58,801 nt of DNA from a virus. The notes beneath the pieces were generated by a model that worked only from the letters and a program-made list of their open reading frames with translations, was not told where the DNA came from and did not search any database. The translations under genes and the position numbers were made by a program. The stretch is taken from the IMG/VR virus record IMGVR_UViG_3300028453_000003, one strand, 5' to 3'. This document shows positions 28,826-52,892 of the stretch, in pieces. Positions within the stretch are counted from its first letter, which is position 1. Every line of letters begins with the position of its first letter.

Positions 28826-30172
28826 TCACCTATTCTGATACCTTTGTTGCTCTCTTGTGATATTCCTAACATCGTGGTTTACATTCGTGGAAGAGGATGG
28901 GTTCTTCACAATACTTGTTCTGCCATTCCTATCCAAATCCTCTTGACCCTTTTTCACAATCGGCTTATGCAAACTATTAGGGTCAGTTTCACCATCCAAT
29001 AATTGGTCTTCCTCATAATCATCCATTTCAAATTCAAGATGACATTCACCTTTGATGTTCTGCAACTCAAGTTCCTTATCAAAGAGTTTCTTAATATACT
29101 TTGCAACCCAATCCCGATTATACTCCAAGAACAAGACCCTACCAGTAGTCTTACTATCCAATTGAATATCGGCAGTAGCCCTATTTGAAGATTCAGAACT
29201 GAATACTGCCTCTGGAGTATTCAAAGCAATGTAAACTTCTTTTTCAAAGTATTTAATGTAATCTTGAATTTGTGGCAAACTACCCCCCTTAAGGAGTTCA
29301 ACTTCAATACCATAAGGCAATATCAAACAACCTTTCATATGGTAATTATTAACCACTTCTGCAACTTCATCTCTTGCATCTTCATCCAAGTAAGTGTTCA
29401 TCTTGTTTTCATTTCCCATTGTAACTGATATAATGTTACTGTTCTTATATACAGTCAATGGCATCTGCTCTCTTAACACTCTCTTGTAGTAGATTGGTTC
29501 TAATGCACCACCAATCAAGGCATTGGCTTTACCATCTCTCTCTAAATATTTCATATGTTGGATTTCATCAAGTTCATAACTGATTTCCATTTCAGTCAAA
29601 TCCTCTTCCAACTCATCAAACTTCTTACGAAGCCAACCCTTATTAGTTCTTGCATTTTTCTGAATCACTTGCTTGTAACCACAAACATCACCATTCTCAT
29701 CAAAGATAACCTTGATACGATAATCAACACCATCATAAGCCAAGAATGTAGGCTTGATATGGTTCTCAACTATACGAAAATGTTGGAACACATCACCATC
29801 CACGAAACCTTTCCAAAGGATATTATCAATAATGTTATCCAAATCCCATATTTCAACCATATCTTCCAAATGCTTAACTGCCTTATCATTATCACCAGTA
29901 ATATACCACTTGGTATTGGTCTTTGTCATCAAATCCATCAAGATACCTTGTGCTTGACTATCGTGAACACTTGCAAATCGGCGATTCTTAACAGTATTAC
30001 GAACCCTTGATGGAGTAGCCTCATACAAATCAACCTTATCACATTTACGATAGTGGTCTTTCCTATCATCAAGACCAACTTCATAAACCTCATTAGGATG
30101 ACTATTCAACAATACCTTACTTGCTTTCGCAATCCTTTCATAAATTCCTATAACTCTCACCTCCTCCATCAT
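28826..30172 (-). CDS. Portal protein
   Basis: 448 aa, immediately downstream of TerL with a 1-nt overlap. Confidence 0.7.
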   Translation of the reverse strand: MMEEVRVIGIYERIAKASKVLLNSHPNEVYEVGLDDRKDHYRKCDKVDLYEATPSRVRNTVKNRRFASVHDSQAQGILMDLMTKTNTKWYITGDNDKAVKHLEDMVEIWDLDNIIDNILWKGFVDGDVFQHFRIVENHIKPTFLAYDGVDYRIKVIFDENGDVCGYKQVIQKNARTNKGWLRKKFDELEEDLTEMEISYELDEIQHMKYLERDGKANALIGGALEPIYYKRVLREQMPLTVYKNSNIISVTMGNENKMNTYLDEDARDEVAEVVNNYHMKGCLILPYGIEVELLKGGSLPQIQDYIKYFEKEVYIALNTPEAVFSSESSNRATADIQLDSKTTGRVLFLEYNRDWVAKYIKKLFDKELELQNIKGECHLEFEMDDYEEDQLLDGETDPNSLHKPIVKKGQEDLDRNGRTSIVKNPSSSTNVNHDVRNITREQQRYQNR

Positions 30173-31392
30173 CAGTAACTGTAAATCCTCACACTATCTT
30201 TATACTGCCTATCGGCACTTAATATGCCTACTGTTCCATAAATACCATAACCAAGAGCATCCATACTATGGTCATCGTGTTTAATCGGCTTATCTATATC
30301 ATTACCCTCTTTATCCTTTTGATAACAATAAGATTCAATCTCACGAATTGTATTGGTGCATCGCTCTGCAATATGCAAAGTGCAAGATTTAACTGCCTCA
30401 ATCTTCGCATCAACATTCTTAATACCACCAATCGCATTGAAACCATAATCACAGAACTCTTGTATACGATCTGGCTCTGCACTATCGCAGTATACTGTAT
30501 CAACTTGATTAGGATTGAGATTGTATTTCCTTAACAGTTTAATGCACTCTGCAATGAACTGATGGTTAATAAGGTTTCTTTCATAGACTTCATCAATGAC
30601 ATAACACTCACCATCAAGCCAACCTAAAAGCAAGAAACAACTTGGATTATTGAAACCAAAGTCGCAACAACCAGTATAATACTCAAAACCTTTTGAGGAC
30701 TCTTTAATATCCCAATGTTGATATATTAAGCCACCACTATCTTGCCAAAGCCCTAAAGTGAGCCTAACATAGTTATCCCAGTCAAATTTCTTCCTTTCCT
30801 CTGCCATCTTGATATACTCTTCACCAACAAAACTATTATCAGTATAATGAAAATGGATAATCTCAATCTTCGGATCATCACGATGCAAATGAAACCTCTT
30901 ATAAATCCAATGAGCCTTTGTAGATGGAGTAATCACAAGTAAAAGTTGCCCATAATCTTTCATACTGGCTTTACCCCTTACCCTTGACTCCAACTCATTA
31001 AAAACATCTTTAGAAATCTCCTCTGCTTGTTCCACATACACAAAATCAAGGTTTAAACTCCTAATCTTCTGAGGGTCATCTAAACCCTTAAAGGAGATAG
31101 TACTCCCATTTAGGAATGTGATAACACCTTCTGACTTGTTTTCCTTATAAGGTATCTGATAATTGTCCAATGCTTCCCTAATTTCTAACCATGAAGTCAT
31201 TCTCAAACTTGGTAAGGTTTGCCTAAACACAGCCACACGAGCATTTTTATGAGTTAAAGCGTACAGAATTGTCTTGTGTATCGCATAGAGAGTCTTGCCA
31301 GAACCCGCCGCTCCTTCTACGAGCAGATATTTGTGTTTATCGTTAATGTACTTCGCTTGTTTCTCTGTTAACTTCCATTCGATGGTTGGCAT
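30172..31392 (-). CDS. terL: Terminase large subunit
   Basis: Walker A VEGAAGSGKT, Walker B LDFVYVEQAEE, and a C-terminal nuclease region with DHSMDALGYG. Confidence 0.9.
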   Translation of the reverse strand: MPTIEWKLTEKQAKYINDKHKYLLVEGAAGSGKTLYAIHKTILYALTHKNARVAVFRQTLPSLRMTSWLEIREALDNYQIPYKENKSEGVITFLNGSTISFKGLDDPQKIRSLNLDFVYVEQAEEISKDVFNELESRVRGKASMKDYGQLLLVITPSTKAHWIYKRFHLHRDDPKIEIIHFHYTDNSFVGEEYIKMAEERKKFDWDNYVRLTLGLWQDSGGLIYQHWDIKESSKGFEYYTGCCDFGFNNPSCFLLLGWLDGECYVIDEVYERNLINHQFIAECIKLLRKYNLNPNQVDTVYCDSAEPDRIQEFCDYGFNAIGGIKNVDAKIEAVKSCTLHIAERCTNTIREIESYCYQKDKEGNDIDKPIKHDDHSMDALGYGIYGTVGILSADRQYKDSVRIYSY

Positions 31393-31667
31393 TAGGAATC
31401 CACCTCTTCCTTGTTTAAATCAGAGATAATTTCAACAGAAGTGAAATCAATGAAACCACCAATAGGAACCTCATAACCATTATGTCTCAATTTAAAACAT
31501 TTTATAGGATTAGGATTACTCTGCAAAATCCTATTAAAAGGCTGGTCATCATAACGAGATGGGCGTAAATGTTCTTTATGCCTTTGATTCTTCTCAATAT
31601 TTGAATCCTTGCCAACATAAGCAACAGAATTATCTTTTTTATCAAAATAAGCATAAATCCCTAACAT
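31392..31667 (-). CDS. GIY-YIG domain-only protein (truncated paralog of 26632-27216)
   Basis: MLGIYAYFDKKDNSVAYVGKDS...QPFNRILQSNPN aligns with the N-terminus of the full-length endonuclease. There is no NUMOD region. It is wedged between terS and terL. Confidence 0.65.
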   Translation of the reverse strand: MLGIYAYFDKKDNSVAYVGKDSNIEKNQRHKEHLRPSRYDDQPFNRILQSNPNPIKCFKLRHNGYEVPIGGFIDFTSVEIISDLNKEEVDS

Positions 31668-32114
31668 TTAATCATCCTTTTCATCTTCTTCCAAAAGTTT
31701 TCTCTCTTTCTCTCCCAACTCATAAGGAGATTTAGCACTACTAATCTTTAATTCAAAGTTATTATCAGTAGCCAAAGCCATCTGCTCTCTCTTACCAAAA
31801 CGATTAGGATACTTCCTCTCCAAAATCCAAGCCGAACTGACCCAATTGCCTTGATCTATCGCATTAGTGTAAATCACATTAAGTATATCCATTTCGGCTT
31901 GTGCCTCTGCCTCTGTAACCCTATCATAGAACTGCTTATAAGGCTCAAGACCTTGCTCACCTTTCTTCTTCCAAGCATAAAAAGTAGTTTTATGAATGCC
32001 AACACTCTGACAAACAGTAGTAATATAATTGCCTTTCAACACCCCCTCAACAATCTTATCACATATAGTCTTATTCAACTTTTGAGGATGTGTTCCACCT
32101 TTAAGTCTACCCAT
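31668..32114 (-). CDS. terS: Terminase small subunit
   Basis: N-terminal HTH (TTVCQSVGIHKTTFYAWKKKGEQG), 148 aa, upstream of terL. Confidence 0.7.
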   Translation of the reverse strand: MGRLKGGTHPQKLNKTICDKIVEGVLKGNYITTVCQSVGIHKTTFYAWKKKGEQGLEPYKQFYDRVTEAEAQAEMDILNVIYTNAIDQGNWVSSAWILERKYPNRFGKREQMALATDNNFELKISSAKSPYELGEKERKLLEEDEKDD

Positions 32115-32142: not shown

Positions 32143-32385
32143 TCATATAAGATGCACTAAACCATCAACAAGCAAAACAACAACACCAACTGCAATACCA
32201 GTCAATATTGCATTTCTTGTAATGTTGCTCTTCTGTTCTTGTTGCAACATCTCATCATGCCTAATCATAATCTCTGTCAATCTCTGTATACTCTTCGTAT
32301 TCTCTGCAAGAGCATCACTATAACCGTTCAACTCTTGCTTAATCATCTCTTGCTCTGTTTCCAACCTGACAATCCTTGATTCCAC
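32143..32385 (-). CDS. Tail-anchored membrane protein (holin-like candidate)
   Basis: Coiled-coil N-terminus and one C-terminal TM segment (AILTGIAVGVVVLLVDGLVHLI). Confidence 0.3.
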   Translation of the reverse strand: MESRIVRLETEQEMIKQELNGYSDALAENTKSIQRLTEIMIRHDEMLQQEQKSNITRNAILTGIAVGVVVLLVDGLVHLI

Positions 32386-32670
32386 TCAAGCACCACCATC
32401 ATCATCGTTGGGATCAAGCTCATAATCATCATTCAATACAGTTTCATCATTGCAAAAGCACTCATTCTTACCATTGCCCAATGACTCAAAAGTGTTAGGG
32501 TGTTTCGCACTCCACACAATCAAGACAATGCTCACAATCGCAATAGCCAAAGCAGAAAATTCCTCTGCACTCAAATATTGTGCAAGGTAAGGTGATAACA
32601 CACCATACAATAATACTGCAATGGTAGAAACATTATTCTGCCAATCGTAATCCATCAAAAAAATCTCCAT
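32386..32670 (-). CDS. Two-TM membrane protein with acidic tail (holin-like candidate)
   Basis: Hydrophobic stretches TIAVLLYGVLSPYLA and ALAIAIVSIVLIVW, with a D/E-rich C-terminus. Confidence 0.3.
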   Translation of the reverse strand: MEIFLMDYDWQNNVSTIAVLLYGVLSPYLAQYLSAEEFSALAIAIVSIVLIVWSAKHPNTFESLGNGKNECFCNDETVLNDDYELDPNDDDGGA

Positions 32671-32682
32671 TTAATTGTTTTT

Positions 32683-32765
32683 TGCGATGGTATGCACATA
32701 AAATAAAGGTGAAAAAAGGGTAGGAGATGGTGAAAAAAATATGATAAAAATTGCATACCATCGCA
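32683..32765. promoter_or_regulatory. 14-bp perfect inverted repeat flanking a 55-bp promoter/terminator-like segment
   Basis: tgcgatggtatgca (32683-32696) / tgcataccatcgca (32752-32765). The spacer reads ataaaataaaggtg...ggagatggtgaaaaaaatatg on the plus strand and is T-rich in gene sense. Confidence 0.5.
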
Positions 32766-32774
32766 GAAAAAAAT

Positions 32775-33059
32775 TCATTTATGTCCTTTAATCATCAACT
32801 TCCTATTCGGAATGTTATGCCTATATGACTTATGCCTTGTCTTAATCTTACTATATCGGATATGCACTCCTCTCCTTGCCTCTGATGGAGCAGAGAATGG
32901 GATCACATTATCCACCTTTTCCAAGCCACAGTATTGTACTGCACTTGACAAGACCAAACCACACTTGTTGCAATAGGTTTCCTCACGAACATAATCCCTT
33001 ACAAACTCTGTATTATTGCATATAGGACAACATTTGGTTTCCTTTTCGGTAAAAATCAT
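32775..33059 (-). CDS. TFIIB/TFB-type Zn-ribbon protein lacking cyclin domains
   Basis: CCPICNNTEFVRDYVREETYCNKCGLVL matches the TFB N-terminal ribbon pattern CPxCG..(x)..D...GE.VC..CGLV. It is followed by only 50 basic residues. Confidence 0.7.
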   Translation of the reverse strand: MIFTEKETKCCPICNNTEFVRDYVREETYCNKCGLVLSSAVQYCGLEKVDNVIPFSAPSEARRGVHIRYSKIKTRHKSYRHNIPNRKLMIKGHK

Positions 33060-33148
33060 CAGTAAAACATCTCCTTATCGTGTAGTGTGGAAGAAACATA
33101 ACTCCCAAATTGGTTCTACTATATATTTTAAACTTGAAAGTATATAAT

Positions 33149-33250
33149 ACAGTTGAAAAAGTATGTTTGCAAGTGTAATAATAAATCGTGATAAATCATG
33201 AACAATTACAGTTTTACAGTTGAAAATGTACTATTGCAAGTGTAAAAATA
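33149..33250. repeat. Direct repeat, 2 copies of about 35 bp, 67-bp period
   Basis: acagttgaaaaagtatgtttgcaagtgtaataata (33149-33183) and acagttgaaaatgtactattgcaagtgtaaaaata (33216-33250). Confidence 0.8.
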
Positions 33251-33524: not shown

Positions 33525-33958
33525 AAAAACACGAAAACAGATAAGAACACTCCAAAACAGAAAAGAAGCCCAAAGAAGAAAAATCCGATTTTTCAATGAA
33601 AAAATAGGTATCTCAACACACAAAAACATAACTTAACCGAGTAAAGCACACAATGAAACAATAAAATAACATTAGAAATATTATTTTATTACATAGTAGC
33701 CATATATAGCAGAGGAAGAAACATAAAATAAAAAAAATACTATAATAATATATAATAACAGAAACTATATAAAACAATCGCACACCATAACCCCCCACAT
33801 ACACCAATGAAAACCCACAATGAAAAAACCCCCAAAAAAACCGAAGAAACATAAAAACCAAAAACCAACCAAACTCCACAGAGCCACACCCCTACCTACT
33901 TTTAAAATTTTTAGGTACTTAACATAAAAACTTTTTAGAATTGCTTATTTTTCTTATT

Positions 33959-33976
33959 GGGTGCCTTTTATTAGTT
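33959..33976 (-). promoter_or_regulatory. Promoter-like TATA+GGCAC motif facing the late genes
   Basis: Minus sense reads ctaataaaaggcaccc, which matches the motif found upstream of the AT-rich cassettes. Confidence 0.35.
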
Positions 33977-34312
33977 ATTCTATTCTTATATATCTTAAAA
34001 AATTGTAGTATATTGTCTTAATATACTATACTGTACAGATAATAGTTAAATGTCTTATCATTACTTTTCATTATTATGTTATTGTCTTTTTGTCCGTGTT
34101 GATCCCTCAATAATTTTTTCTTATTAATTTCCTTATTGTTTTTTTTGTTTTTTGAGTTGTGTATTAATTTAGTATTTTTTTATTTTATTTTGTTGTGTTG
34201 TTGTGTGTTTAATTGTTTTTTTGTTGTTAATATAACAATTGTTATAAAATAGGTTTAAAAAAAAGAGAAAAAATAAACTTTTATATTTGATCTATTAAAT
34301 GAGATAATTTAT

Positions 34313-34627
34313 TTAATTTCCAAAAATTGAAATAATATCTTTTTGAATGTCATAAAATGTTTTTTGGGTTAAACCATAACATTTAATTTTATATTGGGTT
34401 TCGTTTTCGATGTCGTCGATTTTTATGATAATTTCTAAATCATTATAATAAATGTTTATTAATTTAAAGTTTCTATGGTTTCCCATATCCTCTTTTATTT
34501 GATTTAATCCAATTTGAGAGGCTAACCATTTTAAATGATTGTAAGCCTCTTTTATATTGATTCTTTCAAATGATTCGTATTTATATTTGGTTATTGGTTC
34601 AATTTCAATAATTTTTATGTATACCAT
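34313..34627 (-). CDS. AT-rich cassette protein 1, unknown function
   Basis: ATG at 34627 follows the conserved leader ttgagagttgaaaaaa. The track's MKK prefix is a TTG artefact. A T-rich terminator lies downstream. Confidence 0.6.
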   Translation of the reverse strand: MVYIKIIEIEPITKYKYESFERINIKEAYNHLKWLASQIGLNQIKEDMGNHRNFKLINIYYNDLEIIIKIDDIENETQYKIKCYGLTQKTFYDIQKDIISIFGN

Positions 34628-34680
34628 TTTTTTCAACTCTCAATAGTTTTTTAGTTTAAGTGCCTTTTTAAATTGTAACA
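34628..34680 (-). promoter_or_regulatory. Conserved promoter-leader module, copy 1
   Basis: Minus sense reads tgttacaatttaaaaaggcacttaaactaaaaaactattgagagttgaaaaaaATG. Confidence 0.6.
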
Positions 34681-34731
34681 TTTGAAAAAGACAAAAGAAA
34701 AAATAATAAGAATTTTAAAGTAATAATTACT

Positions 34732-34950
34732 TTAAAAATCTTTTAGTAAATTGTTTATGTTTTCATTACAAAAGTATTTTAATTGATCCTTATCATATTT
34801 TAATATTTTTGTAAAATCTGTATTTTTATTTAATTGAAAAAGAATTATTATTATATCTCTAATTTTATTTTGTGTATTGTTATTATCTAATAGGAATAAG
34901 TTTAATAAAATTCTTAATTCAATTAGATTTATTAATAATTCTTTTTTCAT
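34732..34950 (-). CDS. AT-rich cassette protein 2b, unknown function
   Basis: 72 aa, with its ATG overlapping the upstream TGA (ATGA). Confidence 0.5.
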   Translation of the reverse strand: MKKELLINLIELRILLNLFLLDNNNTQNKIRDIIIILFQLNKNTDFTKILKYDKDQLKYFCNENINNLLKDF

Positions 34951-35723
34951 ATTAACACAACATTATTTTTATATTGTAATGTTTTAAGGTAGTTTTCTAT
35001 ACTGTCCTCAAAATCATATAATAAAATAGTTTTGTTGTTATATTCAACATATGGATCAACATAATTATAAACCTCAGTATTTTCATAACATTCATAATTT
35101 AAATTGAAAATTAAATCATTACATTTATTATCATTTTGTATTATGATATTATCAAATAAGAATGATAATTCATTACATTCATATTTTTCAATAGGTTTAT
35201 TTATCCAATAGTTATAATCATTTGATAAAAAAGATATAAATCCATCATAAGAACTATTTTTTTTATGAATATAGTTTTCCATATTTTCAAAAGATAATAC
35301 ATAATTTTTTATTAGATTTAATGTTGTATAATTAGTTTTTAGGAATAATCCATTTTTATCAGTTCTGTAATTGTAATACTTAGGACTGTCTATATAACTG
35401 TCTTTTAATTCTAATAAAAATTGAGGATTTTCTATAATATCATTAGGTAGTAAATCTTTTATTAATTTTAAATATAAATTGCTAAATTCTTTTGATATAT
35501 CATTTTTATAATTTTCAAAATTTTCAAAATTATAATTAACTTCAATATCATTTTCATTTAAAAAAGAATATTTATCTAACAATATATTTTTGTCCTCAAC
35601 TTCATAATCAATAAATTGATCAGAATTACAAAACATACTTTCATAAAATCCATAAAAAACATTTATATATAGTTCTTTTGTTATGTTTTCATTTTCTTTA
35701 TTTTCAAAATTATATTTATTCAT
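34947..35723 (-). CDS. AT-rich cassette protein 2a, acidic N/Y/D/E-rich, unknown function
   Basis: ATG at 35723 follows the conserved leader. 258 aa. Confidence 0.6.
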   Translation of the reverse strand: MNKYNFENKENENITKELYINVFYGFYESMFCNSDQFIDYEVEDKNILLDKYSFLNENDIEVNYNFENFENYKNDISKEFSNLYLKLIKDLLPNDIIENPQFLLELKDSYIDSPKYYNYRTDKNGLFLKTNYTTLNLIKNYVLSFENMENYIHKKNSSYDGFISFLSNDYNYWINKPIEKYECNELSFLFDNIIIQNDNKCNDLIFNLNYECYENTEVYNYVDPYVEYNNKTILLYDFEDSIENYLKTLQYKNNVVLI

Positions 35724-35780
35724 TTTTTTCAACTCTCAAAATTTTTATAGTAAAAAGTGCCTTTTAAGTCTTTAACAACT
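35724..35780 (-). promoter_or_regulatory. Conserved promoter-leader module, copy 2
   Basis: Minus sense reads gttgttaaagacttaaaaggcactttttactataaaaattttgagagttgaaaaaaATG. Confidence 0.6.
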
Positions 35781-35928
35781 AAAAAAGACAAAAGAAAAAA
35801 TAAAAAATAATTAGAATAAAAATTCTAATTCAAATAATTTAAAAATAACTTTACAAATGAAAAAATAAAAAATAAAAAATAAAATTAATGTTGTATTATT
35901 GCTTATCATTTTTTCAAAATCCTTTTTT

Positions 35929-36327
35929 TTATTCAAATGTTAATTGATATTTATTTGAGGATAAGACAAAAACATTATTAAATTGTAAATTGCTTTTGTT
36001 TTCATAATTTTTCTTTAATTCTTTTTCTATAAATCTATAAAAATTAAAGAATTGTTTTTCATTTAGATAAATATCAATACCATATAATGACTTATCAAAA
36101 TACTCTTTATTTATTATGTATTGATCTTTTGAATAAATTGTTAAATCTAATCGTAATCTATAAAAATCAAAATGTAAAGTAAACCTTTTAAATTTAGGAT
36201 TTTCAAAAATTGCTTTTATTTGATTTTCATTACATTTTAAAGGATTTTCTAATTCATAAGAATATACATAATTTTCTTTATTTTTGCTTATGTTTTCAAT
36301 ACATAACTTTTTTAATTGTGTTTTCAT
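35929..36327 (-). CDS. AT-rich cassette protein 3, unknown function
   Basis: ATG at 36327 follows the conserved leader. Confidence 0.6.
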   Translation of the reverse strand: MKTQLKKLCIENISKNKENYVYSYELENPLKCNENQIKAIFENPKFKRFTLHFDFYRLRLDLTIYSKDQYIINKEYFDKSLYGIDIYLNEKQFFNFYRFIEKELKKNYENKSNLQFNNVFVLSSNKYQLTFE

Positions 36328-36378
36328 TTTTTCCAACTCTCAATAGCTTTTAATTTAAGTGCCTTATTGATCTGTAAA
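36328..36378 (-). promoter_or_regulatory. Conserved promoter-leader module, copy 3
   Basis: Minus sense reads tttacagatcaataaggcacttaaattaaaagctattgagagttggaaaaaATG. Confidence 0.6.
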
Positions 36379-36508
36379 AATCTAAATAAGACAAAAGAAA
36401 AAAAGATAAAAACAATTAAATTTTAATTGCTTTATCTATATAAAATAAAATTAGTTTATTGTTTTAGGTAGTAACCTTTAATTTAATTAAAGTTTTACAA
36501 TGAATACT

Positions 36509-37057
36509 TTATTTTTTGAATAAATTGTAAATATCATTTGTACTATTGAAAATATAATTTTCCATAAGTTTATCTAATGAAAATTTAGTATTTATCATAT
36601 ACCATGATAAACCTAAATGATCTATACATAAAATATATAAATCGTCTTTAGAATTATAAAGTATATCATAATTGCAATAATCCTTAAATAAACATAAATC
36701 ATTTTCATTAATAATAAAGTATTGAAAATATTCTTTATAAGTTAAACTTATAAAATCATAATAATGATTGTGTAACATTAAATTTAAATCGTCCTCAGAT
36801 AATTCATTTAAATCAGTATTTTCAAAATCATAAATATAAGAACTGTAATTCTCAAAAAATTCAATTATAGTTTCATTATCATAATTTTGTATAAATTCAT
36901 AACTTAAATTATCAATATTTGAATTTTGTAAATCATAAGGTATTAAATTTATATCAAAATAATCGATAAAATTGCCTAAACTTAATACATTTTCTTTTAG
37001 TTCGTCTTTACTTATTTTCATTATTTTAGTTTTTAAGTAATATTTTTCATTTTCCAT
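36509..37057 (-). CDS. AT-rich cassette protein 4, strongly acidic, unknown function
   Basis: ATG at 37057 follows the conserved leader. The protein is D/E/N/Y-rich with no Arg. Confidence 0.6.
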   Translation of the reverse strand: MENEKYYLKTKIMKISKDELKENVLSLGNFIDYFDINLIPYDLQNSNIDNLSYEFIQNYDNETIIEFFENYSSYIYDFENTDLNELSEDDLNLMLHNHYYDFISLTYKEYFQYFIINENDLCLFKDYCNYDILYNSKDDLYILCIDHLGLSWYMINTKFSLDKLMENYIFNSTNDIYNLFKK

Positions 37058-37111
37058 TTTTTCAACTCTCAAAAGGTTTATAATAAAAAAGTGCTTTATT
37101 TGTCTGTAACA
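37058..37111 (-). promoter_or_regulatory. Conserved promoter-leader module, copy 4
   Basis: Minus sense reads gttacagacaaataaagcacttttttattataaaccttttgagagttgaaaaaATG. Confidence 0.6.
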
Positions 37112-37282
37112 ACATAATAAAACATATGAATAATAATATATGTTTAAAAAATTGAGAATTGAGAGTAAAAAAGAAAATTTTATAATTTTTTAGTTACTAT
37201 AGACAACAATTTATAAAAATTGGATTAGATCCACAATACTATAAAAATTATTAAAAATTTTTGTATTGTGTGCCTTTTTATT

Positions 37283-37302
37283 CGATTAATAATTATTAAT
37301 CG
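37283..37302. promoter_or_regulatory. 20-bp perfect palindrome
   Basis: cgattaataattattaatcg, immediately next to a TATA+GGCAC-like motif (37268-37284, minus sense). Confidence 0.5.
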
Positions 37303-37508
37303 TTACATATAGTATATATGAACTAATATATAAATATTTCTATTTTTATTTTGAATTTACAACAGCTAAAAAATTTTAGGATCAACATATAAAAAATACT
37401 TAACATAGTTAAGTTAATTGTTTTTGTATTGTGTGTGCCTATTAGTAAAAAAAGGTAGTGGATCAATTTCATATAATCATTAATCCTTTTTCAGTTCAGC
37501 TCAAAATA

Positions 37509-37646
37509 AAAAAAGTTTGTACCCAGGCCCTACCCCAAGCCGACCCCCACAGTTTTGGCAGAGCAGAGTACCCAAACCCTACCCACCAGTAAAAAAAAAA
37601 AAAGTTTGTACCCAAACCCTACCAATTATATGTGTGTACCCTTGCT
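37509..37646. repeat. G+C-rich island with three copies of GTACCCARRCCCTACC, two of them followed by A runs
   Basis: Copies at 37519-37535, 37568-37584 and 37608-37623. Four C-tracts lie within 37522-37548 (a G4 motif on the minus strand). A13 run at 37591-37603. Confidence 0.8.
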
Positions 37647-37782
37647 TAAAACTATAAGGATGATGATAATACTCTTGCTTTAAAATAATAATTAATGGTA
37701 AAAGTAGTAGTTTAATTAATCAGTAATGCAATATAATGAAAGCAGTTAATAAAAAAAGTAAATATAGGTAACTTGATATAGG

Positions 37783-38124
37783 CTACCTAATTATAAATTG
37801 TGGTTTTTCTATGATTAGGCAGTCGAGTCCCCCCCATTCTTGTTTGACATATGCTCTGCCGATGGGGTTTTCTTTTCTACCATGAGGCATTATTTTTTTG
37901 GTTATGATGTCGCCATCAGTTAGTATGTTTATTGTGATGACTCCATCTTCTTGTCGGTGGGATTCTATCCATCTGTCTGTTACTGTTAATGGGACTGGGA
38001 TTATTAATGCTTTTTTCCCTATCCATTCTCTTTTTGTGTATATGATTGGGTTTCCTCCCATATATTTGACTCTTCGGAATTCGTATTTCTCGAATTTGAG
38101 TTTTAATGTTATTTCATTTTGCAT
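37783..38124 (-). CDS. Small DNA-binding protein candidate (AbrB/DUF2080-like)
   Basis: The ATG at 38124 (MQNEITLK) is preceded by agagagtatgataaa. TKREWIGKKALIIPVP resembles the DUF2080/AbrB-type strand motif. The upstream part of the track ORF is a repeat array. Confidence 0.4.
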   Translation of the reverse strand: MQNEITLKLKFEKYEFRRVKYMGGNPIIYTKREWIGKKALIIPVPLTVTDRWIESHRQEDGVITINILTDGDIITKKIMPHGRKENPIGRAYVKQEWGGLDCLIIEKPQFIIR

Positions 38125-38145
38125 TTTATCATACTCTCTTTTTTT

Positions 38146-38265
38146 GGTAATCGGTTTGAAAATCAAAAGCAGAAAATCGATTTGAAATTCGGAACTTGCA
38201 ATCGGTTTCAAAATCGGAACTTGCAAATTGGAATGAAAATCAGAAATCGATTTGAAAATCAGAGG
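38146..38265. promoter_or_regulatory. Iteron/operator array (five 17-nt cores, two 10-bp palindromes)
   Basis: Cores of the form aatcg[ga]ttt[gc]aaaat[ct] start at 38149, 38174, 38200 and 38245, with a degenerate copy at 38225. aaatcgattt occurs at 38174-38183 and 38244-38253. ggaacttgcaa occurs twice. Confidence 0.65.
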
Positions 38266-38273
38266 TAGAGAAC

Positions 38274-38383
38274 CTTTATGCCAGTAGCACACAGTAAATT
38301 GTTACAGATATAAAGGCACTTTTATTGAGAGTTGAAAAAAATTCGTGTTAATGTACCCCTTATTGTATGCTACTGGCATAAAG
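38274..38383. promoter_or_regulatory. Candidate invertible promoter segment: 16-bp perfect IRs flanking a reversed copy of the promoter-leader module
   Basis: ctttatgccagtagca (38274-38289) / tgctactggcataaag (38368-38383). The 78-bp spacer carries ttgttacagatataaaggcacttttattgagagttgaaaaaaatt on the plus strand. Confidence 0.55.
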
Positions 38384-38406
38384 ATTCCCCCCCCATTTTG
38401 GAAATT

Positions 38407-38688
38407 CTATTCCATCAGTTCTATCCAGTATTTGACTCGTTCCAATTTTGGTATTCTTGGCTCTGAAGCCATATCCCAACAACATTGCAGGAACAAGTGA
38501 TCTGTTTCGTAGTCTTCCATAAATTCTTCGCTATGAGGACATAATAGTCCATCATTGTATCTGTCTAATGATTCTGCTAACAAGTTGATGGTTGGTTCAT
38601 CATCATCAATAGTGTCTAAATCGATTTCAATTTCAATCATATCATTGTCATCGATTTTGCTTGTTAGTCTATATTTTTGTATATTCAT
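38407..38688 (-). CDS. Acidic small protein, unknown function
   Basis: ATG at 38688 follows taggtgga. The track start at 38700 is GTG. Confidence 0.5.
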   Translation of the reverse strand: MNIQKYRLTSKIDDNDMIEIEIDLDTIDDDEPTINLLAESLDRYNDGLLCPHSEEFMEDYETDHLFLQCCWDMASEPRIPKLERVKYWIELME

Positions 38689-38703
38689 TTGAAAATCCAC
38701 CTA

Positions 38704-38835
38704 TTATTCGTTTTTGCATTTAGGAATATTAAAACTTTCGCATAATTCCTTGCCAAATTCTTCTGCACTCATTTTGAGTATGGTTTCTTGTTCTTTTTTG
38801 TTGCATTTTTGAAATGCCTTGTCGAATACATCCAT
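38704..38835 (-). CDS. Small protein (43 aa), unknown function
   Basis: gaggtgaaataa precedes ATG 38835. Translation: MDVFDKAFQKCNKKEQETILKMSAEEFGKELCESFNIPKCKNE. Not in the track because it is under 60 aa. Confidence 0.45.
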   Translation of the reverse strand: MDVFDKAFQKCNKKEQETILKMSAEEFGKELCESFNIPKCKNE

Positions 38836-38936
38836 TTATTTCACCTCTTAACAATTATTGTTTTGTAATCGTTGATATTACTTTATCATTCATAGTATTT
38901 AAATGTTTTGGTAGAATGGTTGAAAAAAAAATAGTT

Positions 38937-39071
38937 TTATCTTTTGTATGCTAAATCCCAATAGTGAAATCGTTGTGAAAATCGGACATAACATCGGTTC
39001 TTCGTGCCACAGTTCCAACAGTATTTCATATTGGGTTTTAGTTTTGTTCCACAATGGCTACAATATGTCAT
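38937..39071 (-). CDS. Zinc-ribbon protein (44 aa)
   Basis: MTYCSHCGTKLKPNMKYCWNCGTK... contains CxxC-N11-CxxC. ATGA overlap with the upstream stop. Confidence 0.5.
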   Translation of the reverse strand: MTYCSHCGTKLKPNMKYCWNCGTKNRCYVRFSQRFHYWDLAYKR

Positions 39072-39337
39072 AATAATCCCATCTCCTTTGCGATTAGTAG
39101 TAGTTCTTCTGCTTTGGCATCGTATTCTTCTTCGGCGATTACTCTTGGCAGTTCTTCAAGATCCCTTTTCAAATCATACAAAAATGGTAATTTTATCTCT
39201 TCACCAGTATCCTTTATGATACGATAAGATGATTTGCCACTATGCTTATGATAAATCCTTTCACTATTAAGTTGCAATAATAATATTAAACCAATGAGAG
39301 CATCACGAAGTTCTTCACTTATTAAGTATTCAGTCAT
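39068..39337 (-). CDS. Hypothetical protein
   Basis: 89-aa ORF within a coupled operon. Confidence 0.5.
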   Translation of the reverse strand: MTEYLISEELRDALIGLILLLQLNSERIYHKHSGKSSYRIIKDTGEEIKLPFLYDLKRDLEELPRVIAEEEYDAKAEELLLIAKEMGLL

Positions 39338-39503
39338 CTGATTTCATCTCCTTGAAATCTTTTGCCATTAATTCTAATACTATTGAATCATATCCACCTA
39401 TATTGTAACTTAATTCCAATAGTTTGCCTTGTATTTCAATGGTTCTGCCATCGTATAGTTTTATGTTTGCAGTTATTTCTCCTATTTCTCCAAAACACAT
39501 CAT
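39330..39503 (-). CDS. Small protein (57 aa), unknown function
   Basis: The ATG at 39503 overlaps the upstream TGA. Its end overlaps the next ATG. Confidence 0.4.
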   Translation of the reverse strand: MMCFGEIGEITANIKLYDGRTIEIQGKLLELSYNIGGYDSIVLELMAKDFKEMKSDD

Positions 39504-39721
39504 ATTCTATCATCCCATTTCTTGCCACGATTGAATTGTTTTTCGCTTGGGTCGGTTGATTCGTGCCTTAAGTGGAAAATGTATAGCCAAGTGCTTTTAT
39601 GATGACATATTGGGCAATGGTGGTAAATGGTGTTTTTGAAAATCAGTTTGAATTTCAACCACCATTCCCATTTTTGTGTTGTTGCTCCACAATAGGGGCA
39701 TCGGATCTTGTACTTTTTCAT
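39500..39721 (-). CDS. Zinc-finger protein
   Basis: CPYCG ... CPICH cysteine pairs. Confidence 0.55.
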   Translation of the reverse strand: MKKYKIRCPYCGATTQKWEWWLKFKLIFKNTIYHHCPICHHKSTWLYIFHLRHESTDPSEKQFNRGKKWDDRI

Positions 39722-45236: not shown

Positions 45237-45971
45237 TCATTCAATATCTGCAAAGTATTGGTGGCATTTCACAAGTCTATTCTGATTTACTGTTATCAAC
45301 TGCCAACTTGGTGGCTCTAATTGTAAGTATTGTTGGTCTGGGTAACCATCATAACCTAAAAAATGCCCACAATACCCATAAAATATTTGCTTATAACCAG
45401 TAGGAAACCTTTTAAACTCCGACCACCAAATATTTTTATGATTATGACCCTCAAGGTACATATCTGCAACAATATGTTCAGTATTTCTCTCCAATTTCCC
45501 CATAGCCAATGGTTTGGTCTTTGATGAACCTTTACCATGTCTACAAAAAATACTAAAGTCAAAATCATTAATAGAAAATGTATCTAAATTCTGATTGCAA
45601 TAAGTAATCCCCAATTCTCTACACATATCTTTAACAATATTGAAACCAAATTCCTTGTTTAAACGATATTCGTGATTACCAATACAATAACAAACAATAT
45701 CCTCTTTAAATGGTTTGATATTATTAATAAAATATTCTCTCTGCTCTTCAACAGTACAATCTTGCCCATAAGCACTATCCCCAACATTCTTACTTGCAAC
45801 TTCCAACATATCACCAAGCAAATAGATTCGGCGATTTTTAAGAGGTTTTATAGTTTTAAGCATTTGCTTAAACAAATCCTTATTAAAAGTAGGATTCCCT
45901 ATATGCAAATCTGAAATAGGAATGATATTCACTACTGTTTTTGAGTTCAAAGCATATTGATCCAACACCAT
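45237..45971 (-). CDS. Calcineurin-like metallophosphoesterase
   Basis: Motifs DLHIGN, GDMLE, GNHEY, RHGKG and GHNH in canonical order. Confidence 0.8.
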   Translation of the reverse strand: MVLDQYALNSKTVVNIIPISDLHIGNPTFNKDLFKQMLKTIKPLKNRRIYLLGDMLEVASKNVGDSAYGQDCTVEEQREYFINNIKPFKEDIVCYCIGNHEYRLNKEFGFNIVKDMCRELGITYCNQNLDTFSINDFDFSIFCRHGKGSSKTKPLAMGKLERNTEHIVADMYLEGHNHKNIWWSEFKRFPTGYKQIFYGYCGHFLGYDGYPDQQYLQLEPPSWQLITVNQNRLVKCHQYFADIE

Positions 45972-46615
45972 TATATATCACCATCTAATTTTTTCCATTC
46001 AAATCCTTGTTTTTTAACTTCTTTTTCTAAATCTTCTAAATTAACCCTTGAAATATGTTTATGGTAAATTTTCCCATTATTATCTCTTAAGTTAATAACA
46101 TATCTCCAAAGGAATCCTTGTTTGCAACTATTACATTTAACTGTTGAAACTCTATAATATCCAGTAGTGTTCGTGGAATTATGTTTATTTGTACAAGATT
46201 TAGTCATCTTTATCTTATCTTCTATGCTCCAAATTTTTCCAAAATTAGGATGCTTTTCACCACTCATAGCATTACTTATTTTGTCTTTCGCTTCTTTAGA
46301 ATGGTGTTTCCCATACATTGGATGAAGTTCCCCACATCTCCCATAACAATGATGCTCTTTTCCATATTTTGCATCATTTTTTCTATGAAATTTATCGTGG
46401 ACATCTTTTGGAACACATTGTAAATTTTGGATTCGGTTGTCTGTTTTATTGTAATTAATATGGTGAATTACACAATTTTTTGGAATTGGTTTTCCATAAT
46501 GTTCTTCCCATATCAAACGATGTAATAACTGGTTATTATTCCCTTGCTTTTGTGAACTAATTTTATAATACCCATAATTATTCAATGTAGCATTTCCATA
46601 TTTCGTTTCAATCAA
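45971..46615 (-). CDS. HNH homing endonuclease with NUMOD-like repeats
   Basis: HHINYNKTDNRIQNLQCVPKDVHDKFH, plus GKEHHCYG..GKHHSKEAKDKIS..GEKHPNFG. Paralog of 46938-47441. Confidence 0.75.
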   Translation of the reverse strand: MIETKYGNATLNNYGYYKISSQKQGNNNQLLHRLIWEEHYGKPIPKNCVIHHINYNKTDNRIQNLQCVPKDVHDKFHRKNDAKYGKEHHCYGRCGELHPMYGKHHSKEAKDKISNAMSGEKHPNFGKIWSIEDKIKMTKSCTNKHNSTNTTGYYRVSTVKCNSCKQGFLWRYVINLRDNNGKIYHKHISRVNLEDLEKEVKKQGFEWKKLDGDI

Positions 46616-46621
46616 TCTTAT

Positions 46622-46954
46622 TCACCTTTTCTTTTTGTTTATTCCTAATCTTCGTAGTTCGCCTCTGATTTGTCTTAATTCATCATCAAAGTTTTCTTTT
46701 CTTTTTTCGGTTATGTATCCAGTTCCATTTTCTTTTGGTTTTATCCATTTGGTTCTTTTCCATTCGTTTTTTTGGTCTTGCAATGCTTTGGCACTACAAT
46801 CTTTAGTACAATATACTTGCCGATGATGTGTTTTTGCAAAATATTGTCCACAAAATTTACATTTGCAAATTATACTGGCACGATTAAAATGGAAAACACA
46901 ATTGGGTGGTGCATTTTCTTTTATTTTCTTTATATCTTTATAAATTATCTTCAA
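46622..46954 (-). CDS. Basic zinc-finger protein
   Basis: CKCKFCGQ...YCTKDC. Confidence 0.45.
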   Translation of the reverse strand: MKIIYKDIKKIKENAPPNCVFHFNRASIICKCKFCGQYFAKTHHRQVYCTKDCSAKALQDQKNEWKRTKWIKPKENGTGYITEKRKENFDDELRQIRGELRRLGINKKKR

Positions 46955-47441
46955 ATTTATACCACCTTAATCCTTTTTCTCTAACTGCTTTTTCTAATTC
47001 AACAATATTAGTTCTTGAAATAGTTTTCCTATTCCCATCTGCATTAGTATATTCATATCTAAATATGAAACCTTGTTTGCATTTGGAACATTTATTTTTA
47101 TAAACATTGAAAAAACCAACTGTATTCTTGGATTTACTCATTTTAAAACAAGAACTCATCTGATGTTTATTTCCTTTTTTATGTAATTTCAAATGCTCTT
47201 CCTTTTTTAAAAGAGATAAATTACAAATGCAATTATTGACCCTATTTTTATCGTTATGATGAATTTGATAACCTTTGGGGATTTTACCATAATACTTTTC
47301 AAATAATAATCTATGGAAATATTGATGATGGTTACCCTCTTTTCTACTTGTAATTCGATAATACCCATTATCATCTAATTTAGCATTTCCCCATTGGGTA
47401 TGAATTGTATTATTTGGTTTTATTTTTAATTTATACATCAT
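46938..47441 (-). CDS. HNH homing endonuclease (paralog of 45971-46615)
   Basis: QIHHNDKNRVNNCICNLSLLKKEEHLKLH. Both the N- and C-terminal regions align with the neighbouring HNH gene. Confidence 0.7.
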   Translation of the reverse strand: MMYKLKIKPNNTIHTQWGNAKLDDNGYYRITSRKEGNHHQYFHRLLFEKYYGKIPKGYQIHHNDKNRVNNCICNLSLLKKEEHLKLHKKGNKHQMSSCFKMSKSKNTVGFFNVYKNKCSKCKQGFIFRYEYTNADGNRKTISRTNIVELEKAVREKGLRWYKFEDNL

Positions 47442-52451: not shown

Positions 52452-52892
52452 TCACCTCACACTAAATCTTTTCATATATTCTGCAAAATCGTAAGCATTT
52501 GCATTAGCAACCCCAAAAAGAGAATGGTATTTATTATGACAATATTTACACAATGTAATACCATTACTTAATTCCACTCTTAAAGAGGGATAATTTTCAT
52601 ACCCATAGATATGATGAGCAACTAAATGTTTATCTTTTGGAAAACCACAACATTGACAAACTTTATCCCTTTCCTTAACATCAGAAACCCATTGTTGATA
52701 AATGGGAGAATTTCTTGTTACTGAACGACCATCTATTTCATCATAATCTGCTTTCTTGATTTCTTCTATTGTTTCATATTCATTAATAAGAAATTCTTCT
52801 CTGATTTTAAGATGTTTTTCTCTTTTCTTTAATTCTTGCATCTTCCTTGAAATTTCTAAATTAGGATTATTTCTATAAAAAATGGATTCCAT
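52452..52892 (-). CDS. HNH endonuclease
   Basis: CQCCGF...HLVAHHI...NGITLCKYCHNKYH. Confidence 0.75.
   Translation of the reverse strand: MESIFYRNNPNLEISRKMQELKKREKHLKIREEFLINEYETIEEIKKADYDEIDGRSVTRNSPIYQQWVSDVKERDKVCQCCGFPKDKHLVAHHIYGYENYPSLRVELSNGITLCKYCHNKYHSLFGVANANAYDFAEYMKRFSVR

What the first reader, a model, noticed from the sequence alone, without database searches (positions are those of the whole stretch)
32775..33059. Stand-alone TFB/TFIIB Zn-ribbon protein at the head of the late operon
The first 40 residues (KCCPICNNTEFVRDYVREETYCNKCGLVL) match the N-terminal Zn ribbon of archaeal TFB, the module that docks on RNA polymerase. The protein lacks the B-reader GPEWRAF-type segment and both cyclin folds, and ends in a short basic tail. 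A ribbon-only protein could compete with host TFB for the RNAP dock domain, shutting down or re-targeting host transcription, or it could act with a viral partner at the GGCAC promoters. Its position between the long non-coding hinge and the packaging genes fits a late-switch role.
Basis: partly seen in the sequence, partly recalled or inferred. Interest (0 to 1): 0.6.

Follow-up and report, generated by a model that had tools for sequence, protein, structure and literature searches.

The report
Viral stand-alone TFB zinc-ribbon protein
A tailed virus of methane-producing archaea encodes a conserved 94-residue protein that keeps only the RNA-polymerase-docking zinc ribbon of the host initiation factor TFB plus its own basic tail, and it sits just before the DNA-packaging genes, so it is a candidate, untested, late-gene switch.

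Summary
Window 32775-33059 (minus strand) is a real 94-aa gene under purifying selection (pN/pS 0.06-0.35). Residues 11-33 form a CxxC-x15-CxxC ribbon that passes Pfam PF08271, best matches the Pyrococcus TFB ribbon (1PFT), and aligns to TFB N-termini at hhalign E 8e-18.

There are no cyclin repeats. The B-reader signature is gone: only G45-x-E47 stays in register, and that is not significant on its own. The tail is basic (pI 11.7) but is not generic. It carries a family-specific motif, YRHNIPN-KLM-KG.

About 36 clusters (52-100% identity) are all stand-alone. In all 13 loci examined the order is ribbon, membrane protein, 80-aa coiled-coil protein, TerS, with TerL and portal following wherever the contig reaches that far. 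More distant small ribbon proteins sit in the same slot in viruses whose TerL is only 21-29% identical.

The gene has its own TATA box behind two palindromic repeats. A conserved, covarying hairpin rich in oligo-T separates it from the packaging genes, so it is probably its own transcription unit.

Most likely function (inferred, about 0.4): an RNAP-binding late-gene regulator. A TFB decoy and a non-transcriptional role remain open. The GGCAC link is not supported. This scan has already noted a similar ribbon-only gene in another Methanobrevibacter virus.

The parts
32775..33059 (-). CDS of the 94-aa TFB-ribbon protein (stop codon 32775-32777).
   Evidence: ORF list. 36 homologous clusters at 52-100% identity over the full length. 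pN/pS 0.06-0.35.
32961..33029 (-). TFB-type zinc ribbon, C11-x2-C14-x15-C30-x2-C33, with P12, D22, Y23, R25, E27 and, just past C33, G34-L35-V36.
   Evidence: PF08271 32.2 bits against cut-off 29. NF001658. 1PFT. hhalign on the ribbon alone, E 4.6e-21. Regex hit.
32862..32936 (-). Conserved post-ribbon block, residues 42-66 (QY-GLEK-N-IPFSAP-EAR-G-H). It lies where TFB has its B-reader. Only G45-x-E47 and R-x-G are in register.
   Evidence: Invariant columns Q42, G45, L46, K48, P54, S56. The full-length hhalign runs through residue 69. This block alone is not significant (E 0.82).
32778..32825 (-). Family-defining C-terminal basic motif, residues 79-94 (YRHNIPN-KLM-KG-K).
   Evidence: H81, L88 and M89 are invariant in A1. 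H81 is also invariant in the wider set A4. Tail pI 11.7. No Pfam, PHROG or NCBIfam match to this part.
33069..33076 (-). Shine-Dalgarno sequence AAGGAGAT of the gene.
   Evidence: Read from the sequence. Conserved in L002-L004.
33120..33132 (-). Archaeal TATA-like box TTTAAAATATATA, about 60-70 nt upstream of the ATG. This is the candidate promoter of the gene itself.
   Evidence: Sequence. Conserved in L002, L003 and L004. Its promoter function is inferred.
33148..33250 (.). Two copies of a 36-nt repeat (33148-33183 and 33215-33250), each an imperfect palindrome (TACAnTTGnAA ... TTnCAAnTGTA), directly upstream of the TATA box. Candidate operator sites.
   Evidence: Repeat family D1. Conserved in relatives. 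A regulator-binding role is inferred.
32673..32775 (-). Intergenic element between the ribbon gene and the next gene. Perfect 14-nt arms lie at 32683-32696 and 32752-32765 (24 nt at 92% when extended). The 55-nt loop holds sense-strand T7, T7 and T6 runs and the conserved motif CCATCTCCTAC.
   Evidence: I4. RNA fold -23.9 kcal/mol, z -4.1. Four arm variants keep perfect complementarity and a fifth (L005) keeps it imperfectly. T-run clustering.
32386..32670 (-). Next gene: 94-aa protein with two hydrophobic segments. It follows the ribbon gene in every family locus.
32143..32385 (-). 80-aa protein, read as coiled coil plus a C-terminal hydrophobic (membrane) segment.
   Evidence: Also present in vir249, which lacks the ribbon gene.
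28826..32114 (-). Packaging module: TerS (31668-32114), a GIY-YIG-like fragment (31392-31667), TerL (30172-31392) and portal (28826-30172).
   Evidence: PHROG 4102 at E 1.9e-27; Terminase_3 at E 1.2e-27; Portal_Mu at E 1.4e-6.

Best explanation
The gene encodes a small basic regulator built from the RNA-polymerase-recruiting zinc ribbon of archaeal TFB, a diverged stretch in the B-reader position, and a family-specific basic tail. I propose the following sequence of events.

1. [quoted passage not shown]
2. The protein binds the host RNA polymerase at the dock domain through the ribbon.
3. Through its tail it acts at the promoter region immediately downstream, switching on or licensing transcription of the packaging and morphogenesis genes.

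This would make it an archaeal-virus counterpart of the small basic late regulators (RinA/Ltr) that bacterial siphoviruses encode just upstream of terS. In architecture it resembles Sulfolobus TFB3, a truncated TFB that activates without a DNA-binding core.

Shown here: the ribbon is TFB-type; the whole protein is conserved and stand-alone; its position is conserved; it has a TATA-like box, palindromic repeats and a terminator-like hairpin around it.

Inferred only: RNAP binding, the activating direction of the effect, and the target promoter.
For: 1. Ribbon identity.
- PF08271 above its cut-off; NF001658; 1PFT is the top solved match.
- hhalign E 7.9e-18 over the whole protein and 4.6e-21 for the ribbon.
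- Nearly every conserved non-ligand TFB ribbon position is kept (P, S/T, D-Y-x-R-x-E, G-L-V-L). That is expected if the same binding surface is under selection.
- Established knowledge: the TFB/TFIIB ribbon binds the RNAP dock and is needed for recruitment (PMC3025549).

2. Position.
- All 13 family loci have ribbon gene, membrane protein, 80-aa protein and TerS in that order, with TerL and portal following wherever the contig reaches.
- Distant 55-103-aa ribbon proteins sit just upstream of the same membrane-protein/TerS/TerL module, or within about 4.3 kb of TerL, in contigs whose TerL is only 21-29% identical (L023-L034).

3. Own transcription unit.
- A conserved TATA-like box lies behind two palindromic repeats.
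- Three T6-T7 runs and a covarying hairpin lie between this gene and the late genes. The rest of the 32.8-kb late region has only five such runs.

4. Precedents.
- TFB3 needs its ribbon and activates without DNA-binding repeats (PMC6101594).
- This protein is 94 aa with pI 9.5.

5. No other transcription factor B core or TBP is encoded in the window.
Against: - No experimental or expression data exist for this protein.
- The host-type TFB of Methanobacteriaceae has a fully canonical ribbon (L037). A free viral ribbon would therefore compete with TFB for the dock rather than complement a defective ribbon, as TFB3 is thought to do. That favours inhibition unless the tail tethers the protein to the initiation complex.
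- In TFB3 the ribbon alone is inactive, and this protein has no predicted coiled coil (low confidence).
- PF08271 also matches ribbons in bacterial control genomes. The Pfam hit alone is not proof of a transcription role.
- The nearest GenBank virus, vir249, has the same packaging module and a long non-coding hinge but no ribbon gene. The protein is therefore not indispensable for this module.
Confidence: 0.4

Rival explanations
1. TFB decoy or host shut-off factor. The free ribbon occupies the RNAP dock and blocks recruitment by host TFB, lowering host (and early viral) transcription late in infection. This would be comparable in outcome to the RNAP inhibitors RIP of ATV and TFS4.
For: The ribbon is TFB-type and all DNA/TBP-binding repeats are missing. 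The host-type TFB ribbon is canonical, so both would compete for one site. Virus- and host-encoded RNAP inhibitors are known in archaea, and RIP mimics part of TFB (PMC9501531).
Against: - The virus encodes no RNAP of its own in this window and no TFB core. A general block of recruitment would also hit its own late genes.
- The strict placement in front of the packaging module across very distant viruses is not expected for a general shut-off gene.
- The strongly conserved tail motif is not needed for a simple decoy.
Confidence: 0.2
2. Not a transcription factor. The ribbon has been reused as a nucleic-acid- or protein-binding module for DNA packaging (for example marking the pac/cos region in the adjacent hinge, or assisting TerS) or for some other late function.
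For: - The gene lies between a repeat-rich non-coding hinge and TerS/TerL.
- The tail is very basic (pI 11.7).
- Zinc ribbons are versatile, and PF08271 also hits bacterial proteins.
- Phages often carry zinc-ribbon/HNH proteins next to the terminase genes (PMC3592412, abstract).
Against: - There is no nuclease or other packaging-related domain.
- Retention of the TFB-specific non-ligand residues would not be expected after a change of partner.
- vir249 packages with a homologous TerS/TerL but lacks this protein.
Confidence: 0.2
3. Trans-acting swap of the TFB N-terminus. The viral ribbon plus its diverged B-reader-position segment replaces the ribbon and B-reader of host TFB on RNAP, while the host TFB core stays on the promoter. 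This would change start-site choice or promoter opening in favour of late promoters.
For: G45-x-E47 and R-x-G lie in exactly the TFB register, and the full-length profile alignment runs through residue 69. Residues 42-66 are as conserved as the ribbon. TFB N-terminal regions modulate RNAP in promoter-independent assays (PMC3025549).
Against: The post-ribbon segment alone has no significant similarity to TFB (E 0.82). The W, R and F of the B-reader helix are replaced. The AF2 model is low-confidence there.
Confidence: 0.1
4. One half of a split viral mini-TFB, working with a separately encoded core-domain partner. Earlier notes of this scan proposed this for other methanogen viruses.
For: Earlier scan note e1-371323, which is a lead only. 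The ribbon gene always travels with the same two downstream small genes.
Against: No PF00382 (TFIIB repeat), cyclin or TBP hit appears in any of the 45 window ORFs scanned. The conserved neighbours are a membrane protein and a coiled-coil plus hydrophobic-segment protein. Only Pfam-level sensitivity was applied.
Confidence: 0.05

Closest known systems
N-terminal zinc ribbon of archaeal TFB / eukaryotic TFIIB (Pfam PF08271; P. furiosus TFB ribbon, PDB 1PFT).
   Same: Same CxxC-x15-CxxC spacing and the same non-ligand signature (P after the first Cys, D-Y-x-R-x-E, C-G-L-V-L). About 55% identity between the consensus sequences. hhalign E 4.6e-21.
   Different: TFB continues with the GPEWRAF B-reader, the B-linker and two cyclin-fold repeats. 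This protein stops at 94 aa, keeps only G-x-E in the B-reader register, and ends in an unrelated basic motif.
Sulfolobales TFB3, a truncated TFB paralogue that activates DNA-damage genes (PMC6101594).
   Same: A canonical four-Cys ribbon without the DNA-binding core repeats. It acts, or here is proposed to act, as a gene-set-specific regulator rather than a general factor.
   Different: TFB3 is cellular and longer, and needs a C-terminal coiled coil. It co-occurs with a host TFB1 whose ribbon is degenerate. This protein is viral and 94 aa, has no predicted helix in the tail, and the host-type TFB ribbon is intact. Sequence similarity beyond the ribbon was not tested.
RinA/Ltr late transcriptional regulators of Gram-positive siphoviruses (PMC3753634, PMC3152322).
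   Same: [quoted passage not shown] One Ltr family resembles a fragment (region 4) of the host initiation factor sigma, as this protein resembles a fragment of TFB.
   Different: Bacterial system with no sequence relation. Ltr proteins bind DNA repeats; nothing is known about DNA binding for this protein. Here two small genes lie between the regulator candidate and terS.
Virus-encoded TFB homologues of rod-shaped crenarchaeal viruses and Asgard viruses (bioRxiv 10.1101/2021.07.29.453957), and the RNAP inhibitor RIP/ORF145 of ATV (PMC9501531).
   Same: Archaeal viruses that carry, or mimic, part of TFB to deal with the host RNAP.
   Different: The first group are described as TFB homologues, not as ribbon-only proteins. 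RIP is unrelated in sequence, binds the clamp and blocks the DNA channel.
Unnamed small PF08271 proteins of archaea and tailed viruses (ESM Atlas clusters; labelled 'TFIIB zinc-binding domain-containing protein').
   Same: 79-117-aa proteins that carry only the ribbon. One cluster of 182 members is 67% viral (Uroviricota).
   Different: These are automatic labels without any functional study. The family here is set apart by the conserved blocks at residues 42-66 and 79-94, found in only about a dozen (10-15) of 1.84 billion representative proteins.

Membership tests
TFB/TFIIB-type zinc ribbon domain (Pfam PF08271). | Four zinc ligands, CxxC-x15-CxxC. | tested here: met
   C11, C14, C30 and C33 are invariant in 22 and in 23 sequences.
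TFB/TFIIB-type zinc ribbon domain (Pfam PF08271). | Score above the curated Pfam gathering threshold, and no better-matching ribbon family. | tested here: met
   32.2 bits against 29. The next families have E >= 0.059.
TFB/TFIIB-type zinc ribbon domain (Pfam PF08271). | Non-ligand TFB signature (P after Cys1, D-Y-x-R-x-E, C-G-L-V). | tested here: met
   Profile-profile alignment of the ribbon alone: E 4.6e-21, 55% identity. Columns.
TFB/TFIIB-type zinc ribbon domain (Pfam PF08271). | Binds the dock domain of RNA polymerase. | not testable with these tools
   Needs a binding assay or a structure.
Full-length archaeal TFB (NCBIfam NF001658). | B-reader motif GPEWR(A/D)(F/Y) and B-linker. | tested here: not met
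   Only G45-x-E47 is in register. The post-ribbon part against the TFB post-ribbon part gives E 0.82.
Full-length archaeal TFB (NCBIfam NF001658). | Two cyclin-fold TFIIB repeats (PF00382). | tested here: not met
   The protein is 94 aa with no PF00382 hit. The NF001658 score is 25.9 bits against a cut-off of 384.
TFB3-type truncated TFB (Sulfolobales). | Canonical ribbon without the DNA-binding core. | tested here: met
TFB3-type truncated TFB (Sulfolobales). | Essential C-terminal coiled-coil motif. | tested here: inconclusive
   The AF2 model shows no helix of 4 or more residues in residues 60-94, but pLDDT there is 42-59. No dedicated coiled-coil predictor was run.
TFB3-type truncated TFB (Sulfolobales). 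| Sequence homology to TFB3 beyond the ribbon. | not tested
RinA/Ltr-like late regulators (functional class, not homology). | [quoted passage not shown] | tested here: met
   94 aa, pI 9.48. Gene order.
RinA/Ltr-like late regulators (functional class, not homology). | Binds a repeat region upstream of terS and activates the late promoter. | not testable with these tools
   A conserved inverted repeat exists at 32673-32775. Binding and activation need experiments.
RinA/Ltr-like late regulators (functional class, not homology). | Sequence membership in the RinA/ArpU/Ltr families. | tested here: not met
   No Pfam or PHROG hit other than the ribbon.

The most novel reading that the evidence does not exclude
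The protein is a virus-made, trans-acting replacement for the N-terminal module of host TFB. It would take over the RNAP dock and insert its own diverged reader segment. Its tail would hold it in an initiation complex whose promoter-bound part is still host TBP/TFB. This would convert the host polymerase to late-promoter specificity. If so, it would be the first archaeal analogue of phage 'appropriation' of the initiation factor (as T4 AsiA/MotA or gp33/gp55 do with sigma). A whole superfamily of such ribbon proteins would then occupy the same slot in Methanobacteriales tailed viruses.
Probability: 0.12. Interest if true: 0.85.

Novelty: new variant of a known kind. Interest (0 to 1): 0.55.

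Why it matters
How archaeal tailed viruses time their late genes is essentially unknown. No virus-encoded factor that uses the TFB ribbon-dock contact has been characterised in the literature I could search.

This family gives a short, soluble, easily expressed candidate with a clear prediction: zinc-dependent binding to the RNAP dock, and an effect on a promoter that lies 100 nt away from its own gene. It occurs in viruses of Methanobrevibacter-type gut and rumen methanogens, which matter for methane emission.

If the protein binds RNAP, it is also a natural probe of the ribbon-dock interface, which is shared with eukaryotic Pol II. If it does not, it shows that the TFB ribbon has been reused for another task next to the packaging genes.

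Tried and rejected
- Complex prediction. The protein (alignment A1) was folded with residues 1-520 of Rpo1N from a Methanobacteriaceae MAG. The result was 'no answer' (0.27 against a mark of 0.32), so it is not used either way.
- AF2 model of the protein. Mean pLDDT is 57.8 and about 70 in the ribbon. That is too low for a fold search, so none was run.
- B-reader homology. Rejected as unproven, because the post-ribbon segment alone gives hhalign E 0.82.
- Link to 'GGCAC promoters'. Rejected. The seven intergenic AAAAGGCAC-type sites all lie at 33961-39563, in the cassette array and the far hinge. None is at this gene or in the late region.
- Split-TFB partner. No TFIIB repeat, cyclin or TBP domain was found in the 45 window ORFs scanned.
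- Fusion partners as functional hints. The longer PF08271 proteins carry no informative second domain.
- Gene at the physical genome end. Many contigs stop 0.1-2 kb upstream of the ribbon gene. L014, L015 and L016 continue 1.2-6 kb further. Assembly breaks at the variable AT-rich cassettes are therefore the likelier cause.
- Database look-ups with no result. GenBank phage records gave no DNA or protein match to this gene. No full-length family member was found in 185,579 species-representative genomes. No whole genome is held for the window.
- tRNA-like elements. ARAGORN and Rfam found nothing in the equivalent intergenic slot of L023, L031 and L033.
- Literature. Hahn & Roberts 2000 (ribbon surface mutants) is not held, so ribbon contact residues could not be checked against published mutants.

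Full report
**1. What is there**

Window 32775-33059 on the minus strand is an ATG-started ORF of 94 codons. An AAGGAGAT Shine-Dalgarno sequence precedes the start codon. Almost all genes of the 58.8-kb window lie on this strand.

Read along the minus strand, the order is:
- an integrase-like gene;
- replication and nucleotide-metabolism genes;
- a 17-19% G+C cassette array;
- a 1.25-kb non-coding hinge;
- this gene;
- a 94-aa protein with two hydrophobic segments;
- an 80-aa protein I read as coiled coil plus a C-terminal hydrophobic segment;
- TerS, a GIY-YIG-like fragment, TerL and portal;
- head and tail genes, and a Cys-peptidase lysin.

The nearest GenBank record is Caudoviricetes sp. 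vir249 (host Methanobacteriales, human gut), with 44% TerL identity. This is therefore a temperate tailed virus of a Methanobacteriales host.

**2. The ribbon is genuinely TFB-type**

- Pfam gives PF08271 (TFIIB zinc-binding) at 32.2 bits against a cut-off of 29. No other ribbon family is significant.
- NCBIfam's TFB model matches residues 4-41.
- A profile of the family finds the P. furiosus TFB ribbon (1PFT) as the best solved chain, followed by human TFIIB and Brf.
- Profile against profile, the family aligns to ten archaeal TFB N-termini with probability 99% and E 7.9e-18. The ribbon alone gives E 4.6e-21 at 55% consensus identity.
- The spacing is CxxC-x15-CxxC. Beyond the four cysteines, the TFB-specific P, S/T, D-Y-x-R-x-E and G-L-V-L positions are all kept.
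- A host-type TFB from a Methanobacteriaceae MAG has the same pattern.
- PF08271 also hits bacterial ribbons in control genomes. I therefore rest the TFB assignment on the profile-profile and 1PFT results, not on the Pfam label alone.

**3. What follows the ribbon**

The protein has no cyclin repeats. The GPEWRAF B-reader signature is missing. G45 and E47 do lie at exactly the distance from the last cysteine where TFB has G-P-E. HMMER alignments to human TFIIB run up to that glycine, and the full hhalign alignment runs to residue 69.

When I cut the ribbon off both profiles, the remainder was not significantly similar (E 0.82). The only aligned stretch was this same register. B-reader ancestry is therefore possible but not demonstrated.

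The C-terminal half is not a generic basic tail. Residues 42-66 and the terminal YRHNIPN-KLM-KG motif are as conserved as the ribbon. They match nothing in Pfam, PHROGs or NCBIfam. The tail has pI 11.7 and the whole protein pI 9.5. AF2 gives a modest ribbon and an unconfident remainder. That could mean a segment that orders only on a partner, but it does not show it.

**4. Family and distribution**

- The word-indexed search found 36 clusters at 52-100% identity, all covering the full length.
- The exhaustive HMM search of 1.84 billion representatives found 254 proteins at E <= 1e-3.
  - Only about a dozen (10-15) of them share the whole architecture.
  - One of those is N-terminally fused.
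  - The rest are other small ribbon proteins and ordinary TFBs.
- None of 185,579 species-representative genomes carries a full-length member. Seven IMG/VR viral contigs do.
- pN/pS against four relatives is 0.06-0.35.
- ESM Atlas neighbours are small PF08271-only proteins of archaea and Uroviricota.
- This scan has already recorded a 64-aa stand-alone TFB ribbon at the replication/packaging junction of another Methanobrevibacter virus (e1-3288233). The general phenomenon is thus not unique to this window.

**5. Conserved position**

In every family locus examined (window, L002, L003, L005-L007, L013-L019) the order is ribbon gene, membrane protein, 80-aa protein, TerS. TerL and portal follow wherever the contig reaches that far.

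More distant ribbon proteins show the same placement. They are 55-103 aa, share the ETYC-x2-CGLVL signature and have different short tails. They sit directly upstream of a homologous membrane protein and TerS/TerL, or within about 4.3 kb of TerL. This holds in contigs whose TerL is only 21-29% identical to the window's (L023-L034).

A position kept across that much divergence argues for a functional tie to the packaging/late module. The tie is not obligatory: vir249 has the module and a long hinge but no ribbon gene.

**6. Cis anatomy**

- Upstream, a TATA-like TTTAAAATATATA (33120-33132) is conserved in relatives. Two 36-nt imperfect palindromes precede it.
- Downstream, the 104-nt gap to the next gene holds perfect 14-nt inverted arms around a 55-nt T-rich loop. 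As RNA it folds at -23.9 kcal/mol (z -4.1).
- Across relatives the arms change sequence but stay complementary. Four variants pair perfectly and a fifth (L005) imperfectly. A loop motif, CCATCTCCTAC, is kept.
- Sense-strand T>=6 runs are rare in the 32.8-kb late region (eight in all). Three of them lie in this gap and a fourth lies just beyond it.
- Archaeal RNAP terminates at oligo-T tracts (established knowledge). The gene is therefore most likely its own unit, or is followed by an attenuator, rather than simply being the first cistron of the late operon.
Nothing links it to this protein.

**7. Mechanism**

The TFB/TFIIB ribbon docks on RNAP and is needed for recruitment (PMC3025549). TFB3 shows that a truncated TFB without DNA-binding repeats can be a gene-set-specific activator (PMC6101594). 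Bacterial siphoviruses place small basic late activators, one family of them sigma-like, immediately upstream of terS (PMC3753634).

I therefore favour an RNAP-binding late-gene regulator (0.4). The main difficulty is that the host-type TFB ribbon is intact. The viral ribbon would have to compete with it, which keeps the decoy/shut-off model alive (0.2).

Other readings:
- a non-transcriptional, packaging-related role (0.2);
- a trans-acting ribbon/reader swap (0.1);
- a split mini-TFB (0.05; no core-domain partner was found).

None of these can be excluded. A complex prediction gave no verdict and RNA data could not be obtained.

**8. Verdict**

The protein is a new, well-defined variant within the known kind 'TFB-type ribbon / truncated TFB'. 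It is virus-encoded and has a conserved tail and a conserved genomic slot. Its function is inferred, not shown.

Noticed in passing
window 32673-32775: The hairpin after the ribbon gene carries in its loop the conserved motif CCATCTCCTAC. Eight nucleotides of it (CATCTCCT) are exactly complementary to the gene's own Shine-Dalgarno region AGGAGATG. Read on the plus strand, the loop looks like a TATA-like box plus a Shine-Dalgarno leader pointing antisense into the ribbon gene. It could be translational feedback or an antisense RNA.
   Followed up: partly
L023:972-1220, L031:3126-3400, L033:1304-1611: In distant viruses, the slot between the ribbon gene and the membrane-protein gene holds a long stem whose 3' side follows a tRNA T-arm-like GGTTCGAATCC/GGTTCGACTCC hairpin (an acceptor-like stem plus a T-arm). 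ARAGORN and Rfam call nothing there. It resembles the tRNA top-half elements noted elsewhere in this genome.
   Followed up: partly
L002, L005, L013, L017, L019, L023, L024, L027-L029 (contig ends): In many independent metagenome assemblies the contig stops 0.1-1.2 kb upstream of the ribbon gene. L014-L016 bridge the spot. The cause is probably assembly breaks at the hypervariable 17% G+C cassette array, not a physical genome end.
   Followed up: partly
window 33640-33920: Part of the 'non-coding hinge' is conserved at 73-84% in six relatives (L002, L005, L013-L016). It is G/T-rich on the gene-sense strand. It is a candidate ncRNA, origin or pac region.
   Followed up: no
L041:808-1173 (Methanobacteriaceae MAG, contig of 1.5 kb): A 121-aa cellular or proviral protein carries two zinc modules. 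Its second ribbon is followed by SIQYVSGEKID, close to the viral QYVGLEKVD block. It is a possible link between the viral family and host-genome copies.
   Followed up: no
window 33961, 34660, 35757, 36359, 37270, 37435, 39563 (minus strand): AAAAGGCAC sits about 25 nt upstream of the start codons of the AT-rich cassette genes, right after a TTTAAAAA-like box. This would make those mRNAs nearly leaderless. One orphan copy at 33961 opens the hinge with no ORF behind it.
   Followed up: partly
window 31392-31667 and 45971-47441, 52452-52892: The window holds a 91-aa GIY-YIG-like fragment between TerS and TerL, and three HNH endonuclease genes in the early region. Relative L014 has an extra ~700-nt insertion between TerS and TerL. 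These are signs of homing-endonuclease traffic.
   Followed up: no
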